Assembly (NCBI RefSeq): GCF_001447785.1
Contig: NW_015163618.1
Location: 505,942 to 569,941 of the forward strand
Length of the DNA stretch: 64,000 nucleotides
From: Gekko japonicus
Taxonomy: Eukaryota
Direction of reading: 5' to 3'
Numbering within the stretch: position 1 is the first letter of the stretch; every line of letters starts with the position of its first letter. Position numbers and translations under genes: made by a program. Of the stretch, positions 2,736 through 33,431 are shown piece after piece. The notes beneath the pieces were generated by a model. The model did not search any database. It saw only the letters and a list, made by a program, of their open reading frames with translations, and was not told where the DNA came from.

Positions 2736-3320
2736 GGGTCCATCATTAGCAGTCCTCATATGCGCCGAAGAGCTACATCAACCCGAGAGTGTCCATCTCG
2801 CCCTCACCAGACTATGCCTAATTCTTCCTCACTACTAGGGTCCTTATTTGGTAGTAAAAGGGGGAAGCCTTCCCAAGGCCATCTAGCACCTGGCCCATCA
2901 CAGCAGCCTCAGCACCCCCCCATAATTTCACATCAGCAACACTCACAGCATTCTTCTGCAATGCACCACTCAGGGTCAGTTGAAGGGCAGACCCAAGCAC
3001 AAGTGCACACCCACCATTCTCAGTATTGTCATATGCAGAACCCACCCCCTTACCATCATCACCACCACTATCATCCACCCCAGCATATTCAGCACCCACA
3101 CCAGTACCATCACGTACCGCATTCCCAGCACATACCGCATTCCCAGCATTCTTACATACCACACTCCCATTCACAGCATTCCCATGCTCCCCATCCTCCA
3201 TTGCCCCCTCCTCACCCTGCACACTCTTCCCATGCTTCGCATCACCATGGTCAGCCAGTTCCCCCTTCTACTTCAACCAGCACTAAGTCCAAACACAGTG
3301 GCATCAGCACAATAGTCTAG
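2736..3320 (+). CDS. IQSEC1: IQSEC1 terminal coding exon (long isoform; His/Pro-rich tail, PDZ-binding STIV)
   Basis: Long pyrimidine tract plus tag|GGG TCC ATC ATT gives GSIISSPHMRRRATSTRECPSRPHQTMPNSSSLLGSLFGSKRGK...HSQYCHMQNPPPYHHHHHYHPP...SGISTIV*, recognisable as IQSEC1. Confidence 0.95.
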   Translation, partial: GSIISSPHMRRRATSTRECPSRPHQTMPNSSSLLGSLFGSKRGKPSQGHLAPGPSQQPQHPPIISHQQHSQHSSAMHHSGSVEGQTQAQVHTHHSQYCHMQNPPPYHHHHHYHPPQHIQHPHQYHHVPHSQHIPHSQHSYIPHSHSQHSHAPHPPLPPPHPAHSSHASHHHGQPVPPSTSTSTKSKHSGISTIV

Positions 3321-12372: not shown

Positions 12373-12672
12373 AATTTCTTGCTTGAGTTAAGGTGCCATG
12401 GTTTAAAATTTATCTTAAGTGGAATCACATTTTATTTATATAAAAGCCCTAACACGTTAGCCATTTCCAGCTCTCCCATTGGCTGTGCTGTGCACTCCAT
12501 CAATAACCTAAAGAGGTAAGTCAAACAGAGTAGAGGGCCAACAATTAAAACTTTTATATATATATATACACACACACACATGTATTTATTAGCAAAAGAA
12601 TTAAAAAACATAAGGGCCCAATTACACCTCATACAAAAATACCAAAATCAAACACACAAGGCCAATAGAATA

Positions 12673-12714
12673 GACCTGACGCATTTCGGCCTGTTCAGGC
12701 CTTCTTCAGAGGTC
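12673..12714 (-). ncRNA. Minimal type I hammerhead ribozyme motif (Penelope-associated)
   Basis: Minus strand: GACCT-CTGAAGA-A-GGCCTG-AA-CAGGCC-GAAA-TGCG-TC-AGGTC. Perfect 5-bp stem I, intact core, GUC cleavage triplet. Confidence 0.75.
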
Positions 12715-13179
12715 AAACACAATGAGGAGCAAATTAGCTTATATCATTATACAAGTACACAATATGGATACAAACTGGACCAGACAAAAATTGCTGTAAA
12801 AAAATAAAATGTGAAATGAAATACATACAATAAAATGAATAAATAAATAATGCCTATATTCAACTAAAAACATATTGACTTACTTCCAAAGTGAAACCAC
12901 TAGGCACAGAATAAAAGTACAAACGAGGCTTCCAGAGATGCAATCACATGCCAAATGATGTTTTACTGATAATAATCTAGACACAAAAAAAATTATAAAC
13001 CAATTCTATCTACAATTTTGAAACTTAATTCAAAAAGTAATTAATAAATACTATTATTTTGTTACTTCTGGTCCAGAAAGTGCCTTCCGATGATTGTTTA
13101 GTTCAAGCCAAAGTGTCCACAGCAAAATTGTTCCTTTATCAAAGAGCAGTGCTGATAGACAAAAGTACTGGAGCTTTAT

Positions 13180-13480
13180 ACCAGGTGAAAAATGATGCAA
13201 TCCTTGAGGAAAGCCTTGAAACAGTCAGGTGTCACTTCACTACAGCTGGCCACAGCGACAGAGACTTCTCTTTCTTCGCTCTGGAATATGTTCTACCTTG
13301 CAACAATATTCAGATGACTCAGTGTTTTAAAACCAGAGAATTGTTTTGGATTCATGCCCTTAAAACTTAAACCCCATATGGTCTAAATGAGCAGGTAGAC
13401 TGGTGTGTGCTATGATTTTATGACAGTTTTAGCATATAGTCTGAAACTTGTATTGTTTTGTAGTTTTAATGTTATGCTGT
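13180..13480 (+). mobile_element. Penelope-like element GIY-YIG endonuclease C-terminal remnant
   Basis: HFTTAGHSDRDFSFFALE...RELFWIHALKT*TPYGLNE resembles the PLE GIY-YIG C-terminal signature (RExxWIxxLxTxxPxGLN). Confidence 0.75.
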
Positions 13481-13507
13481 ATGTGGGATGTGCAGTCACA
13501 TGACACA

Positions 13508-24701: not shown

Positions 24702-25334
24702 ACAGCTGGAATTGGAGACATCGCCTGCCTAGAGAAAGTAAGAGAAAGATGATAGTTCCTATATAAGATGAAACATAAGGCAATCAACAGCCAAAGAGGC
24801 TCAACATCTAACCCATGAGAAGGTGGGGCCAACTGCCAAGTGGCTGAAACAGAGAATTATCTTAACAGTTTCCCTCCCAGATACTATTGCATGTAGAGTT
24901 ACAATATCCAACAAGGTGCACGGTACTTTACATTTTGTACTATTACTATTGGCTCCCGGCTTCACTAAATTTTTCTGACTGAGCAAGAAATATTATTTTG
25001 CTTTATTCTTTTATGTCTTAACAGTTCTCTAAAAAATTTTATAAGACTATCTTTCCAAAAAATGACTCATTGCTTTTGGAAAATGTACCTGACCATGACA
25101 GTAAACTCTCAAGAATGAGGCCTCTGATTAATATCTTTGCCTTTGGTCACAGAGAATAATCATGAGGAAGTAAGTTAACATATATCTTTTGTTGACAAAT
25201 GTTTTCAAGTTTATTATTTTTAATAATTAATAATTTATCTTATTTTTTTCTCCTCCAGGAAACTTTATCTTGGTCAATTTATAAGAAATGATTGTTGTAT
25301 TATAATGGCAGGAGCCATTCCTGTAATGTATTTG

Positions 25335-25380
25335 TTTGACTACTGAGAAAGGCCAATGGGCCGAAATACTTCTGGTCAGA
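25335..25380 (+). ncRNA. Degenerate hammerhead ribozyme motif (core substituted)
   Basis: TTTGACTA-CTGAGAAA-GGCC-AATG-GGCC-GAAA-TACT-TC-TGGTCAGA; 8-bp stem I with G-U pairs; G8 is replaced by A. Confidence 0.55.
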
Positions 25381-26107
25381 GTCAATAATGGTCACTTCTT
25401 GTTGTCACTGTACATTATGAATCTTAGGTGAGGCTATCACAGGGGCCAATATCTGTTTTCAATTTACTTTGAAATAAATACATGTATATTTTTGAATATC
25501 TGTTTATATTTATTAATTTTAAATTTGACTGACAGAATCATTTAGTTATTAATCGTTTCTTCCTGTTTGAGCCTGCCTGGCCCTACCAGGTCCTTTTTCT
25601 GGCCACCCACCCTTCTCAGGTGAGATGAGATGACTGTTGAGAAAATAGGCAGAAATACTTAAATACTCCAGAGTTTGCAATGGATCTTTGCTTCACTGGA
25701 GAGGAGACATTTCTTTCTATGTAAAAATCTTTATTTCTAAGGGAAGGGTTCACATGGAAAGCTACAAAAGAGATATCTAGAGCTACATTTTTTAAATCCT
25801 TACAGCACAGAACACATGGTCACACAACAATGGAGTTTCTTCTTCTTCTTGACCCCTAGAAGGAAGTCACCATGATTGCTAGTAAACAGACTTAGATTTG
25901 GGCTATCTTCCCATTGGCTCTGATCCAAGTTTCCCTTCCAAGTCAGTCCAGAGCCAACAGTCCCTTCCAGTTACACTAGGTAAAGCAGATTAACCCTATA
26001 ATGACTGGAATCTAGATCTTGCAAGTCACACATTTCCAACAGTGACAACATAGAGAGGATTCTTGGTGCCACAACTATGGTCTTCTCTCTCCTTTGATTA
26101 TCCCAAA

Positions 26108-29234: not shown

Positions 29235-32200
29235 TTTTTTTTGTTTAACGATTTATTTTAAACTTTTACCAATTAACACAATCTTTACACTTACCATTAC
29301 AAATACAATTGTGAGAGCCTTAATATTCCAATATTCTTTGTATCCAGTTATACACTCTTGACCAAAGTCTCAAGTAAGTCTCTTCATCTTTCCCTTGTAA
29401 TAGAATAGTCAGTCTTTCAGTCTCTGTCAGCTCTAATAGTCTTTGTATTAATTCCTCCTTTGTTAGAATGTTTTCTGATTTCCAATATTTTGCAAACAAA
29501 ATTCTGGCCAAAGAAAGAATATATTTTATCAGACGTAAATCCAATTTATTATATCCATGGGGTATCATATTCAATAGATGAATCTCAGGTTTTAACTGTA
29601 GATTAATAACTACATTTCTTACATTTCCAACATAAACTCGTTACATTTGAATAACATTTGACTAGTTTTTCGGGGGACCAATGCCATCTATGAAACATTT
29701 TGTAAATGTTCTCTTTGTGAGCCGTAGCTCTAGTGAATTTTATTGTATTCCACATTTTTGACCAGTCTTCTAAATCTGTATTATGGCCAATATCCCATAC
29801 AAGCAATCATTGGTACTTTAACCATTTCATCATACATATATTCATCTCTTTTTTTTGTGCCCCCCCGTAGGGGATTTTTTTTATTTGCATTTTCTATTAA
29901 CTACAAACTATAAAACTACAACAAAAATAGGGAAGGAAACTACATACTGTGGCGAAAAATAAAGAAAACCCTCTAAAAACCCGAGAGATAGTGGTCATAC
30001 AGCTTATCAAAATTAGCTTTTGGCTCAATTCAATTCAAGTTCATTGAATGTGGTCATCTAGCAATCAATTTATACTAATAAGACCTCAATTCTGACTTCA
30101 TAAAAAGCAATATAAGGCTTATAACAATACATTTTAAGTGTTTTCAGAGTGTGATAACATCTTATTTTTTATACTTTGACTTTCTCAAATTATAGCTTGT
30201 CTTCAGGGCAGCTGCCCCCAATTTAGAGTCTGAGTCCTCGTCTGAAGATGCCGCTGCTCCTTCTTCTTCGCTGTCTTTAGTGCTGTCCTCTTTCTCAGCT
30301 TCAACCTCTCCTGATGGACTATGTAGATGCAGAAATTCTCATGCCTTTTCAACAGGGTCAATTTTTTCTTTCTTGTCCATAAATTTGAAGATTGTACCTT
30401 TGGGTATTAACCATCTGTAGGGCTTGTCACGAAGTCTCTATATTTCCTCCTCTTCCTTCTTATTTCAAACGGGATGTCCTTTAATACTTTTATTTCTTTG
30501 TCTTTGATCTTCAAGGTAGATCTATTTGTCGCTTTGAGAATTTGATATCTCACTTGTCTTTTAGAGAATCTTATAATCACTTCCCCAGGCAGATTATTTT
30601 TTCTTGTAAATTCTGGATTCGATCTATAGATCATATCTGTTTCGCTTTGTAAGGTGTCCGTTTTTATATCTGCTATAGGTCCTAATGCATCACACATAGT
30701 CTGTTTCAGATTCTCGGATTTTTCTTCAGGAATACCTTGAAATCTTAAGACATAGCTTGCTCTCTCCATTAGTAGCTGTAACAGTTGAGACTCCTCCATG
30801 AATCTCTTTTTTTCCATCACCTGCAATTGTTTTTTAAGCTTTTTGGTGTTGGTATCCACTTCTTTTACTTCTTGTTCAGTTTTATCTGTTTTTTTGGCTA
30901 TTTCAGTCAATTGCAATTGCTGTGTGTCGAATTTGCTGTGCAGTGCTGTCACTTGTTCTAGCAGGGGTCGCAATGTTTCTGTCAGCATCTTTTGTAGCTC
31001 CGTAGGTGTGTCCTGTCTAGGGGCAGGACTCGCTGGGCCAGCAGTTCCGGCAAGAAGTTTTGTTTTGCTTGTTTGTCTTTCTCATCCTTCCTCGTGGGCG
31101 CCATGTTTGAGATTGTTTACTCTTTATATACGTTATCACAATTTCTGATTCTCCCAGCACAGCTTGGTAAGTACTTAAATGCTTTTAATTTCAGTCTCTC
31201 TTGCTTCAGTATTCCACCCCCCTTTTCACATAAATGCAAAGTTCGCTTAGTTTTTCTTATCGGGGGAAAGTCCCCCCCCCTCGCGTTTAAAGGGTAGGTT
31301 TCCGCTTAAATTTTCGGTGTTTCTTGCTTAAACTTCAACTCACATTTCAACACCAGATCTGATTTTCTTTGCAAATTGCTCGGCCACCAAACGCTTGCTC
31401 TGGTGTGCGCTTCTAATTCCCATTTGGGATGTACTGTGGCGGGACCTTCGGGGCTTGGAGAAAGCCCCCCTTCACTGGCTGGGTCGCTGGAGGAAGAGCC
31501 TTCTATCGCCCCATGGCTAGAGCCTCCTGCAGAGGCTCCGGGGGTGGCGTGGACAATCACGCCCCCTCCTTACCGTAGGCTCTGGCAGTCCTCTCCCGGA
31601 GAAATGGGAGAAGTGGCCACCATGGCGAATGCCAAAATCAGAACCTCCATATCTTCATCTATTAAGAAGGTATATAACTTTTTAATCAATTTCTCATCTG
31701 AACTCAACCAAATCCTATCCCAGTCCGTTAATTTCTTGTAAAAACCTAGTTGGTTATCTTTAATAAACCTAGATTTTAACTGCAGTCCTTCTCACCAGGT
31801 AAATTTTATATTTTGGCTTAATAGTATTTCATCTGGTTTTAATCTATTATTTATATCTAATAACTCATCGTAGGAATTTAGATTATATTTAGATAGTAAC
31901 GTGGGTTTTATGAAAGCTTCGAGAGGTGAAACCCACCTTGGGATTTTATCATAGTGCGTTAATTTGATCTCTTTCCATATTTTTATCAATGCCCCTCTTA
32001 TCACATGTTGGTGAAAGTTTTTATGTACTCTGTCTTTGTTGTACTATATATAGGCGTGCCATCCCATAGTTAAATCGTGACTTTCTAATTTTAAACATCT
32101 TGAGTTCTCTAAAGATATCCATTCTTTTATTCATAATAGTGATGCTGCTTTATAATATAGAGCCCAATTGGGTAGCCCAAAACCTCCCCTTTCCTTTTTG

Positions 32201-33431
32201 TCTTGAAGAGCTTTCAATTTAATCCTTGGATTTTTCGACTGCCAAATAAACTGACCTACAATTTTATCTAAATCTTTTAAAAATTGCTTCTTTTTAAGAA
32301 TTGGTATATTTTGAGCCAAAAATAAAAACCTTGGCAAGATGTTCATTTTAATTGCAATTCTCCCCATAAATGATAGTTGTAATCCCTTCCATTTTTCCAA
32401 ATCTTTTTATATCAATAAGTAACTTCTTATAATTGTCTTATTTATTTTTTTGATTTTTATCCCGCCCTCCTGCCGAAGCGGCTCTTCTAGTATAGAACTA
32501 CACCTGTTAGTTAAGACTATTCCTAAATACTTGACTTTTTTACTTACTTCTATAGAGGAGATTTCTTGAAGCTGTTGTATCTGACTTTTCGTGCAATTTT
32601 TGGTCAGTGAACTAGTTTTTAAAAAATTAATTTTCAAACCTGCTGCTTGTCCATAATCTTGAATTATAGTAATAAATTGATTAATAGATGTTACGGGCTT
32701 TTCTAGAATAAGAATTAGGTTGTCCGCAAACGCTTGGAGTTTAAATTCTTCTTCTTTTATTCTTAATCCTTTTATCATCTCATCTTCTCTTACCCGGTCA
32801 TTGAGGGCTTCCAAGGTAAAAATGAAAAGCAGGGTAGAGAGAGGGCATCCTTACCTTGTCCCTTTCTGTATTTCAATTTTATGGGTAAGATCTCCAGTCA
32901 CTTGTATATTTGATGTTTGTGCTTTATATATGGGACTAATAATCACTGTAAAAAACTTATCACCACAATCCCACGCATTGAGTTTTTGTAGTAAGAATTC
33001 TCAAATTATGTTATCAAAAGCCTTTTCCGCGTCAAGAAAAACAAGAGTGTTTTTCAGGGTGTAACTCATAGTATTCTAGCACATTGATAATTGTTCAAAC
33101 ATTATTTTTAATTTCTCTTCTTGGTAGAAACCCTGCTTGGTCTTGGTGGATGACTTGAATCAATACTCTTTTCAGTCTGGAAGCGAATATGTTTGCAAAT
33201 ATTTTATAATCAACATTCAGTAGGGATAAAGATCTATAATTTCTTTTTTTTTTCCCTTCAGTTTCTTGTTTGTGTATCAGTGTAATCAGAGCTTGGTTCC
33301 ATGAGTCAGGAGTTTTACCTTTCTGGACTATGTTTTGAATAACAGATTTTAATGGCAAAATTATTTGTTCTTGAAATACCTGGTAAACTTCTGCGGGAAG
33401 TTCATCTTGTCCTGGTGCTTTCTTTTTCTAG
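29235..33431 (-). mobile_element. L1 LINE ORF2 (5'-truncated, degenerate), split by a nested insert at 29848-31647
   Basis: YRSLSLLNVDYKIFA; DQAGFLPRR; LQAFADNLIL; KYLGI; GGFGLPNW; zf-RVT-like KENIYKMFHRWHWSP..CWKC; ARILFAKYWK. Confidence 0.9.
29848..31647 (-). mobile_element. ORF1-only L1-derived element (HAL1-like), 1.8 kb
   Basis: 13-bp TSD CATATATTCATCT/CATATCTTCATCT (29835-29847, 31648-31660); GC-rich 5'UTR; ORF1 coiled-coil plus LRFQGIPEE/VIIRF/VLKDIP motifs; AATAAA and A-tail; no ORF2. Confidence 0.75.

What the first reader, a model, noticed from the sequence alone, without database searches (positions are those of the whole stretch)
12673..12714. Near-perfect minimal hammerhead ribozyme in the intergenic region
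Seen (minus strand): 5'-GACCU CUGAAGA A GGCCUG AA CAGGCC GAAA UGCG UC^AGGUC-3'. Stem I GACCU/AGGUC is a perfect 5 bp, stem II has 5-6 bp, the core is complete (plus one extra A after A9), and the GUC triplet predicts cleavage between 12678 and 12677. The helix III region AUGCGU is one CpG-type transition from the palindrome ACGCGU and can still self-pair in a dimer (A-U, U-G, G-C, C-G, G-U, U-A). Established: Penelope-like retroelements encode such minimal, dimer-dependent type I hammerheads in their pseudo-LTRs; a GIY-YIG remnant lies ~500 bp away. Inference: a possibly still active self-cleaving RNA from a second PLE family, distinct from the GTGTGCATGCACAC family. It lies on the strand a divergent ACAD9-promoter transcript would use.
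Basis: partly seen in the sequence, partly recalled or inferred. Interest (0 to 1): 0.7.

Follow-up and report, generated by a model that had tools for sequence, protein, structure and literature searches.

The report
Fossil Penelope retrotransposon hammerhead ribozyme
A small self-cutting-RNA motif (hammerhead) really is here, but it is a passenger in one broken, decaying copy of an abundant Penelope-type jumping gene and is likely silent at this spot, so it is an ordinary example of a known kind.

Summary
Observation confirmed. 12673-12714 (minus strand) holds a complete minimal type I hammerhead core. It lies in the pseudo-LTR of a 1-kb, 5'-truncated Penelope-like insertion (12499-13504). 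The GIY-YIG piece of that insertion is locally inverted; in sister copies ORF and ribozyme share a strand. The genome has 1,506 exact matches to a strict core pattern (control 1), and both stems covary between families. Full-length relatives encode RT plus GIY-YIG with a CxxCxxC linker, so the clade is likely Neptune. In 29 sister copies the motif decays as fast as its flanks (7.8% vs 7.4%) and 7 of 29 still pair fully, so this copy's intactness is unremarkable. It is predicted weaker than its sisters, has no same-strand partner nearby, and lies about 21 kb from the ACAD9-side CpG island. Copies run through the cut site instead of ending at it. Such motifs are published for fish, amphibians and reptiles, and this scan has noted them repeatedly, also in this genome. 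Extras: two spliced pLTR introns upstream of the ribozyme, and a conserved -1 frame offset between ORF1 and ORF2.

The parts
12673..12714 (-). Minimal type I hammerhead motif: stem I 12714-12710 with 12677-12673, core 12709-12703, extra A 12702, stem II 12701-12697 with 12692-12688, G12-A15.1 12687-12684, loop III 12683-12680, U16.1 12679, C17 12678
12677..12678 (-). Predicted self-cleavage site (3' of C17); cleavage not shown
   Evidence: sequence and standard hammerhead numbering
12499..13231 (-). Body of the insertion in element sense: 3' UTR / pseudo-LTR; ends 179 nt downstream of the predicted cut
   Evidence: blastn to 29 sister loci, ends at 12499-12505 in 20 of 29; collinear with full-length copy L130
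12977..13065 (-). pLTR intron A (GT..AG), retained in this copy
   Evidence: joint in 14 RNA reads and 2 contigs, 21 reads and 4 contigs on L130; precisely absent from genomic copies L074, L132, L133
12794..12883 (-). pLTR intron B (GT..AG), retained in this copy; acceptor 80 nt upstream of the ribozyme
   Evidence: precisely absent from L072, L074, L083, L091, L096, L132; 21 reads join its donor on L130, with the acceptor laid 6 nt off the AG
13232..13504 (+). Inverted 5' piece of the same element (end of the GIY-YIG domain plus start of the 3' UTR); 8-nt duplication at the inversion; no target-site duplication seen
   Evidence: collinear with the body and on its strand in L007, L010, L012, L022, L043, L130 and others
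13233..13415 (+). GIY-YIG C-terminal coding remnant, premature stop at 13368-13370, natural stop at 13413-13415
   Evidence: 67% identical over 45 aa to the end of the open 769-aa RT-GIY-YIG frame of L051/L052

Best explanation
The motif is the minimal hammerhead of a Penelope-like retrotransposon (likely Neptune clade), carried as a passenger in a 5'-truncated, 5'-inverted insertion, and this copy is likely silent. Shown: in the element the ribozyme lies on the sense strand of the pseudo-LTR, downstream of two spliced introns. In a head-to-tail arrangement it would sit about 250 nt upstream of the ORF1 ATG. Its stems are kept by compensatory changes between families, while inserted copies decay neutrally, mostly at CpG. 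Inferred: selection acts on the ribozyme only in the mobile source elements. There it likely cuts slowly and conditionally, as a dimer through the palindromic helix III or with help from the element's protein, trimming read-through or tandem transcripts. The RNA that is reverse-transcribed is usually intact across the cut site. This copy has one CpG change that puts wobble pairs next to the core, a shortened stem I, no partner and no shown transcript, so it is predicted to have no function here.
For: 1,506 vs 1 pattern matches. Stems: 92% of cells paired vs 83% shuffled, 4 of 11 pairs with double-sided changes, including the pair next to the cut. Same strand as ORF in loci that hold both. RT, GIY-YIG and CxxCxxC linker in L051. 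Decay 103/1326 in the motif vs 1203/16167 elsewhere; 7 of 29 copies fully pairing. Two-CpG-change loops are not enriched for palindromes (11 of 29, about 15 expected from single-change rates; by eye). Helix III self-duplex -3.9 vs -7.5 kcal/mol, stem I 5 vs 9 bp, P(stem I) 0-0.13 in natural flanks. 23 of 29 copies run 160 nt or more past the cut; none of 10 and none of 2 junction-enriched matches starts or ends cleanly at it. Published: monomers inactive and dimers weak (PMC4209133); Anolis Poseidon ribozyme protein-assisted and not needed for insertion in vitro (PMC11167929).
Against: The core of this copy is complete and helix III can still form six pairs. The computed active dimer (-28.7) is below two monomers (-26.2), so weak cleavage in vitro is possible; it is 6.7 kcal/mol above the best dimer fold. 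Low P(stem I) is also seen for an intact sister (L006, 0.09-0.19), so it does not single this copy out. The 29 sisters are the best hits to this copy, not a random sample. Covariation controls do not remove relatedness, and the core columns of that alignment were fixed by the search pattern. The RNA runs are unstranded, only partly read, and not shown to be from this species, so silence of the locus is not shown. Clade name rests on one motif, not on a tree.
Confidence: 0.88

Rival explanations
1. Same element and same dead copy, but the family's ribozyme is an obligatory step: it cuts tandem transcripts into unit-length RNAs that are re-ligated into circles, and circles are the template (model of PMC4209133).
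For: Copies running through the cut site fit a re-ligated circle as well as an uncut RNA. One full-length copy (L130) is about one unit long and circularly permuted, its ends meeting about 100-125 nt after the cut. Stems are under selection in source elements.
Against: 3' ends cluster 170 nt or more past the cut and short of the ATG, as expected from a fixed internal start of reverse transcription (PMC11167929). Ribozyme mutants of the Anolis element still insert in vitro. No read ends pile up at the cut (weak test). L130 is one example.
Confidence: 0.25
2. This copy has been co-opted: a minus-strand host transcript (divergent from the ACAD9-side CpG island) carries the ribozyme and is cut or terminated by it.
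For: Core complete; strand matches a divergent transcript. Window copy differs from the sister majority at 3 of 46 positions in the motif and 60 of 678 elsewhere, a slightly lower rate.
Against: 3/46 vs 60/678 is within noise, and about a quarter of sisters are as intact. The island is about 21 kb away. No cis partner; the only other related motif in the window (25333-25383) is on the other strand with a broken core. Reads over the motif carry other letters at nearly all reads at several sites, so they come from other copies.
Confidence: 0.03
3. A non-LTR retrozyme unit (non-coding tandem repeat with a hammerhead in each monomer).
For: Same ribozyme type; retrozymes are proposed to derive from PLE pLTRs (bioRxiv 10.64898/2026.07.22.740005). 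Short tandem, partly spliced copies exist elsewhere (L132, L133).
Against: This copy is single and attached to the GIY-YIG end and pLTR introns of a coding element.
Confidence: 0.03
4. Chance match to the hammerhead pattern.
For: Folding z-score only -1.6; no Rfam hit.
Against: 1,506 vs 1 matches, fixed position in the element, covarying stems.
Confidence: 0.005

Closest known systems
Minimal hammerheads (min-HHR) in pLTRs of metazoan PLEs, including Xena, Poseidon and Neptune of fishes and motifs in turtle and snakes (Cervera and De la Pena 2014, PMC4209133; parts 1-2 of 4 read)
   Same: Type I topology, full core, extra nucleotide between 9 and 10.1, G10.1-C11.1, short helix I, palindromic helix III region, pLTR location, mostly solo copies from truncated elements, opposite-strand pairs a few hundred bp apart.
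   Different: Stem II is 5 bp (7-8 bp in the Schistosoma families); loop III region is a 6-nt palindrome in the parent form; this particular lizard-type family was not looked up in Repbase or Dfam (not available).
PAc / Poseidon of Anolis carolinensis (Frangieh et al. 2024, PMC11167929; parts 1-2 of 4 read)
   Same: Reptile EN+ PLE with a pLTR hammerhead; insertion 3' ends lie downstream of the cut; no RNA-seq ends at the cut.
   Different: In PAc the ORF starts inside the ribozyme; here the ATG is about 250 nt downstream of the cut, two introns precede the ribozyme, the protein has the Zn-finger-like linker and a separate ORF1.
Neptune clade of EN+ PLEs (as defined in Craig et al. 2021, PMC8557442; introduction and passages read)
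   Same: RT, CX2-5CxxC linker, C-terminal GIY-YIG with CCHH, pLTRs, 5' truncation with inverted pieces, 3' hammerhead, retained 5'-UTR introns.
   Different: The linker is shared with Nematis; no tree against named references was built. No microsatellite target at this insertion.
Non-LTR retrozymes (bioRxiv 10.64898/2026.07.22.740005; part 1 of 5 and passages read)
   Same: Type I hammerhead, PLE pLTR ancestry proposed.
   Different: Not a tandem non-coding array; this is a fragment of a coding element.

Membership tests
Minimal type I hammerhead of metazoan PLEs | Complete catalytic core and cleavable triplet | tested here: met
Minimal type I hammerhead of metazoan PLEs | Extra nucleotide between 9 and 10.1, and G10.1-C11.1 pair | tested here: met
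   (pair invariant in 22 of 22 distinct rows, but fixed by the search pattern)
Minimal type I hammerhead of metazoan PLEs | Helices I and II supported by covariation | tested here: met
   4 of 11 pairs double-sided, 27 cells vs 10.5 shuffled; slid controls far lower; relatedness not removed
Minimal type I hammerhead of metazoan PLEs | Palindromic helix III region for dimer formation | tested here: met
   parent form palindromic; this copy has one CpG change and pairs with two wobbles
Minimal type I hammerhead of metazoan PLEs | Located in the pLTR on the element's sense strand | tested here: met
Minimal type I hammerhead of metazoan PLEs | Self-cleavage as dimer or with protein | not testable with these tools
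   needs in vitro assay; genomic and RNA-seq proxies gave no sign of cut ends
EN+ Penelope-like element | RT followed by C-terminal GIY-YIG with CCHH residues | tested here: met
   L051 769-aa frame: RVT_1 6e-07, GIY-YIG 8.7e-06; motifs read; window holds only the last 60 codons
EN+ Penelope-like element | pLTR continuing into the ORF start; 5' truncation with inverted pieces; retained introns | tested here: met
Neptune clade | CX2-5CxxC linker between RT and EN | tested here: met
   present in L051 frame; shared with Nematis per PMC8557442
Neptune clade | Placement in an RT tree with named Neptune, Nematis and Poseidon references | not tested
   homologue search gave 1,731 hits at E<=1e-50 (best 120 listed, 32-43% identity; lizards, newts, axolotl, frogs, fish, lancelet) but no clade names
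Non-LTR retrozyme | Tandem non-coding monomers each with a hammerhead | tested here: not met
   single motif, attached to ORF remnant
Rfam hammerhead families | Score at gathering threshold | tested here: not met

The most novel reading that the evidence does not exclude
The copy itself is dead, but its family exposes an undescribed expression plan for a vertebrate Neptune-type element. A pLTR transcript is spliced twice and carries the hammerhead about 250 nt before the ATG, so cutting would remove the cap from the element's own mRNA and act as a dose-dependent off switch. ORF1 is joined to RT-EN by a conserved -1 frameshift at a U-rich slippery heptamer. Young, 99%-identical copies with open frames would make this directly testable.
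Probability: 0.15. Interest if true: 0.5.

Novelty: new member of a known kind. Interest (0 to 1): 0.14.

Why it matters
As a single locus it matters little: it is one of well over a thousand decaying copies of a published motif class. The role of PLE hammerheads in cells is still open (PMC8557442 calls it unclear). This family adds side evidence: selection on the stems in source elements only, templates intact across the cut site, the ribozyme placed in a spliced 5' leader, and young full-length copies suited to the assay that has been done for the Anolis Poseidon element.

Tried and rejected
Rfam: no hammerhead hit. Pfam on the window's short remnant frame: no GIY-YIG hit, only DUF5054 at E 0.13; the identification comes from full-length relatives.

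Idea that double CpG changes keep the palindrome by selection: hinted by 13 of 17 in the 29 sisters, not borne out in the larger sample (11 of 29; by eye; a scripted tally was not run).

Idea, from earlier scan notes, that copies begin or end at the cut: 10 junction-enriched matches were 4 small indels or duplications in whole motifs and 6 junctions scattered from about -3 to +5, none cleanly at +1; 2 matches for 3' ends, neither at the cut. Only this subfamily was tested, with few matches.

No RNA holder listed for this stretch. Read laying used runs found by species label; they are unstranded and cannot show strand or true ends.

No target-site duplication found at the insertion ends. No stable stimulatory structure after the slippery heptamer (consensus -0.36 kcal/mol). 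A protein alignment failed on stop codons and was not repeated. Recalled RAB7 motifs found no exon in the window.

Literature searches: Penelope-like + Neptune + hammerhead + Anolis, 0 papers; Penelope + ribosomal frameshift + slippery + retrotransposon, 0 papers; two searches returned only general PLE papers, seen as listings. Supplements of PMC4209133 (vertebrate motif alignments) and figure 1 of PMC8557442 were not seen and may already show this motif type or the frameshift.

Full report
OBSERVATION. It has a 5-bp stem I, the full core, an extra A after A9, a 5-bp stem II with a 4-nt loop, and C17 at 12678, so the predicted cut is 12678/12677. A generic descriptor finds it as the only hit in the window. 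Its fold alone is unremarkable (z -1.6) and Rfam has no hammerhead hit. A strict core pattern matches the genome 1,506 times against 1 for the reversed control, so chance is excluded.

WHAT IT SITS IN. A 501-nt query around the motif gave 1,591 candidates in the genome, 40 scored, at 79-90% identity. Alignment to 29 sister loci delimits an insertion at 12499-13504. The part 13231 to 12499 is the element's sense strand. The part 13232-13504, with the end of the GIY-YIG domain, is inverted in this copy. In sisters such as L007, L010, L012, L022 and the full-length L130 it precedes the body on the same strand. There is an 8-nt duplication at the inversion and no target-site duplication. Inverted 5' pieces are a described PLE feature (PMC8557442, passages). 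Related young copies (L051, L052; 99% identical over 3.7 kb) have an open 769-aa frame with RT and GIY-YIG and a CxxCxxC linker. That linker marks Neptune and Nematis (PMC8557442, introduction), and Neptune and Poseidon are the groups reported in vertebrates (bioRxiv 10.64898/2026.07.22.740005, passages). Neptune is therefore likely but not tested by a tree. The homologue search gave unnamed RT proteins from lizards, amphibians, fish and lancelet.

ANATOMY OF THE FAMILY. L130, from the window's own subfamily, and several other loci show the pLTR end running on into the ORF1 ATG. In a head-to-tail unit the ribozyme would thus lie about 250 nt upstream of the start codon. Two GT..AG introns lie upstream of it (12977-13065 and 12794-12883). 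Seven of the 135 loci then held lack one or both precisely, which shows that sense RNA was spliced and copied back into DNA. RNA reads also join intron A (14 reads; 21 reads) and the donor of intron B (21 reads, acceptor laid 6 nt off). Those reads may come from transcribed intron-less copies, and the runs are not shown to be from this species.

SELECTION. Across families the stems covary. In 22 distinct rows (24 of 31 available motifs were aligned) 92% of cells pair against 83% in shuffles, and 4 of 11 pairs change on both sides, among them the stem I pair next to the cut (15 U-A, 7 A-U). The shuffle ignores relatedness and the pattern fixed the core. Within the subfamily, inserted copies decay freely: 103 of 1,326 positions (7.8%) in the motif and 1,203 of 16,167 (7.4%) in the rest. 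The window copy differs from the majority at 3 of 46 and 60 of 678, and 7 of 29 sisters keep core, stems and dimer pairing. Among the first 100 of 196 matches for loop III (counted by eye), 27 keep the palindrome, 35 have one CpG change (10 the same as here), 29 have two and 9 are other. Palindromic double changes (11 of 29) are not enriched. The structure is kept in source elements, not in their inserted copies.

THIS COPY. Computed helix III self-pairing is -3.9 kcal/mol against -7.5 for the parent form. Stem I is 5 bp against 9 in L006 and L030. With natural flanks stem I forms with probability 0-0.13; it is 0.7-0.8 in L030 but also low in L006. The active dimer is 2.5 kcal/mol below two monomers and 6.7 above the best dimer fold, so weak trans cleavage in vitro is not excluded. 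A covariance model finds one other related motif in 74 kb, at 25333-25383, on the other strand with a broken core. Reads laid on the motif carry other letters in nearly all reads at several sites and leave parts of the insertion uncovered, so they come from other copies; no ends pile up at the cut. These runs are unstranded and partly read, so this is weak.

MECHANISM. Shown: position, strand, splicing, covariation and neutral decay; also that copies run through the cut. 23 of 29 sisters extend 160 nt or more beyond it, and junction-enriched searches found none of 10 starting and none of 2 ending cleanly at it. From the literature: minimal PLE hammerheads are inactive as monomers and weak as dimers (PMC4209133, parts 1-2). 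The Anolis Poseidon ribozyme cuts only with the element's protein, is not needed for insertion in vitro, and reverse transcription starts internally downstream of it (PMC11167929, parts 1-2). Inferred: the family ribozyme is a conditional processor of read-through or tandem transcripts, the usual template is intact across the cut, and this copy is an idle passenger (0.88). The circle model stays open for the family (0.25); one circularly permuted unit-length copy (L130) fits it but proves nothing. Co-option of this copy is unlikely (0.03).

NOVELTY. The motif class, its PLE link and its presence in reptiles are published. The scan index holds 1,179 notes with these words in at least 52 genomes and 7 hammerhead notes in this genome; none for this window. 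They are AI notes; I used them as leads only. The cut-site footprint that some report elsewhere was not seen in this subfamily. Verdict: new member of a known kind, interest 0.14. The side findings on the family (spliced leader, -1 frame offset between ORF1 and ORF2) are of more interest than the locus; my searches found no paper on the latter, but figure 1 of PMC8557442 mentions a frameshift after ORF1 in some PLE type and could not be seen.

Noticed in passing
L051:5036-4949 (-), also L052, L109, L118, L119, L122, L130: ORF1 (about 250 aa) and the RT-EN frame overlap in the -1 frame in 7 of 10 copies compared. A U-rich slippery heptamer of the X-XXY-YYZ form lies in the ORF1 frame in 5 of 8 aligned copies, with no stable structure behind it. 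It could be a programmed -1 frameshift; the same letters also resemble a splice acceptor, so an intron is the alternative.
   Followed up: partly
L130 (G000:C538:230.5-235.4 kb, -): Full-length copy of the window's subfamily, about one unit long and circularly permuted: its 5' end starts where its 3' end stops, about 100-125 nt downstream of the cut.
   Followed up: partly
L132, L133: Short tandem and inverted clusters of spliced pLTR pieces with two or three hammerheads each; same-strand pairs 433 and 111 bp apart could dimerise in cis, though the pair in L133 has lost part of stem II.
   Followed up: partly
window 25333-25383 (+): Second, decayed hammerhead of a related family (32 bits, E 3e-07) with A at core position 8 and a changed loop III.
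   Followed up: no
Its link to a PLE ORF was not tested.
   Followed up: partly
window 2736-3320 (+): His/Pro-rich 194-aa frame that looks like a terminal coding exon; recalled as the C-terminus of the long IQSEC1 isoform, not verified. The ribozyme is antisense to it and to ACAD9.
   Followed up: no
window 29300-33430 (-): Fragments resembling L1 ORF1 and ORF2 (recalled resemblance) lie between the ribozyme and the CpG island.
   Followed up: no
L071-L100: Many hammerhead families in this genome have U or A at position 17 instead of C while keeping the palindrome.
   Followed up: no
L056:5076-5594 and 1334-1857: A related PLE copy is flanked by a 520-bp direct repeat (90% identical) that is not part of the element as seen in L051.
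   Followed up: no
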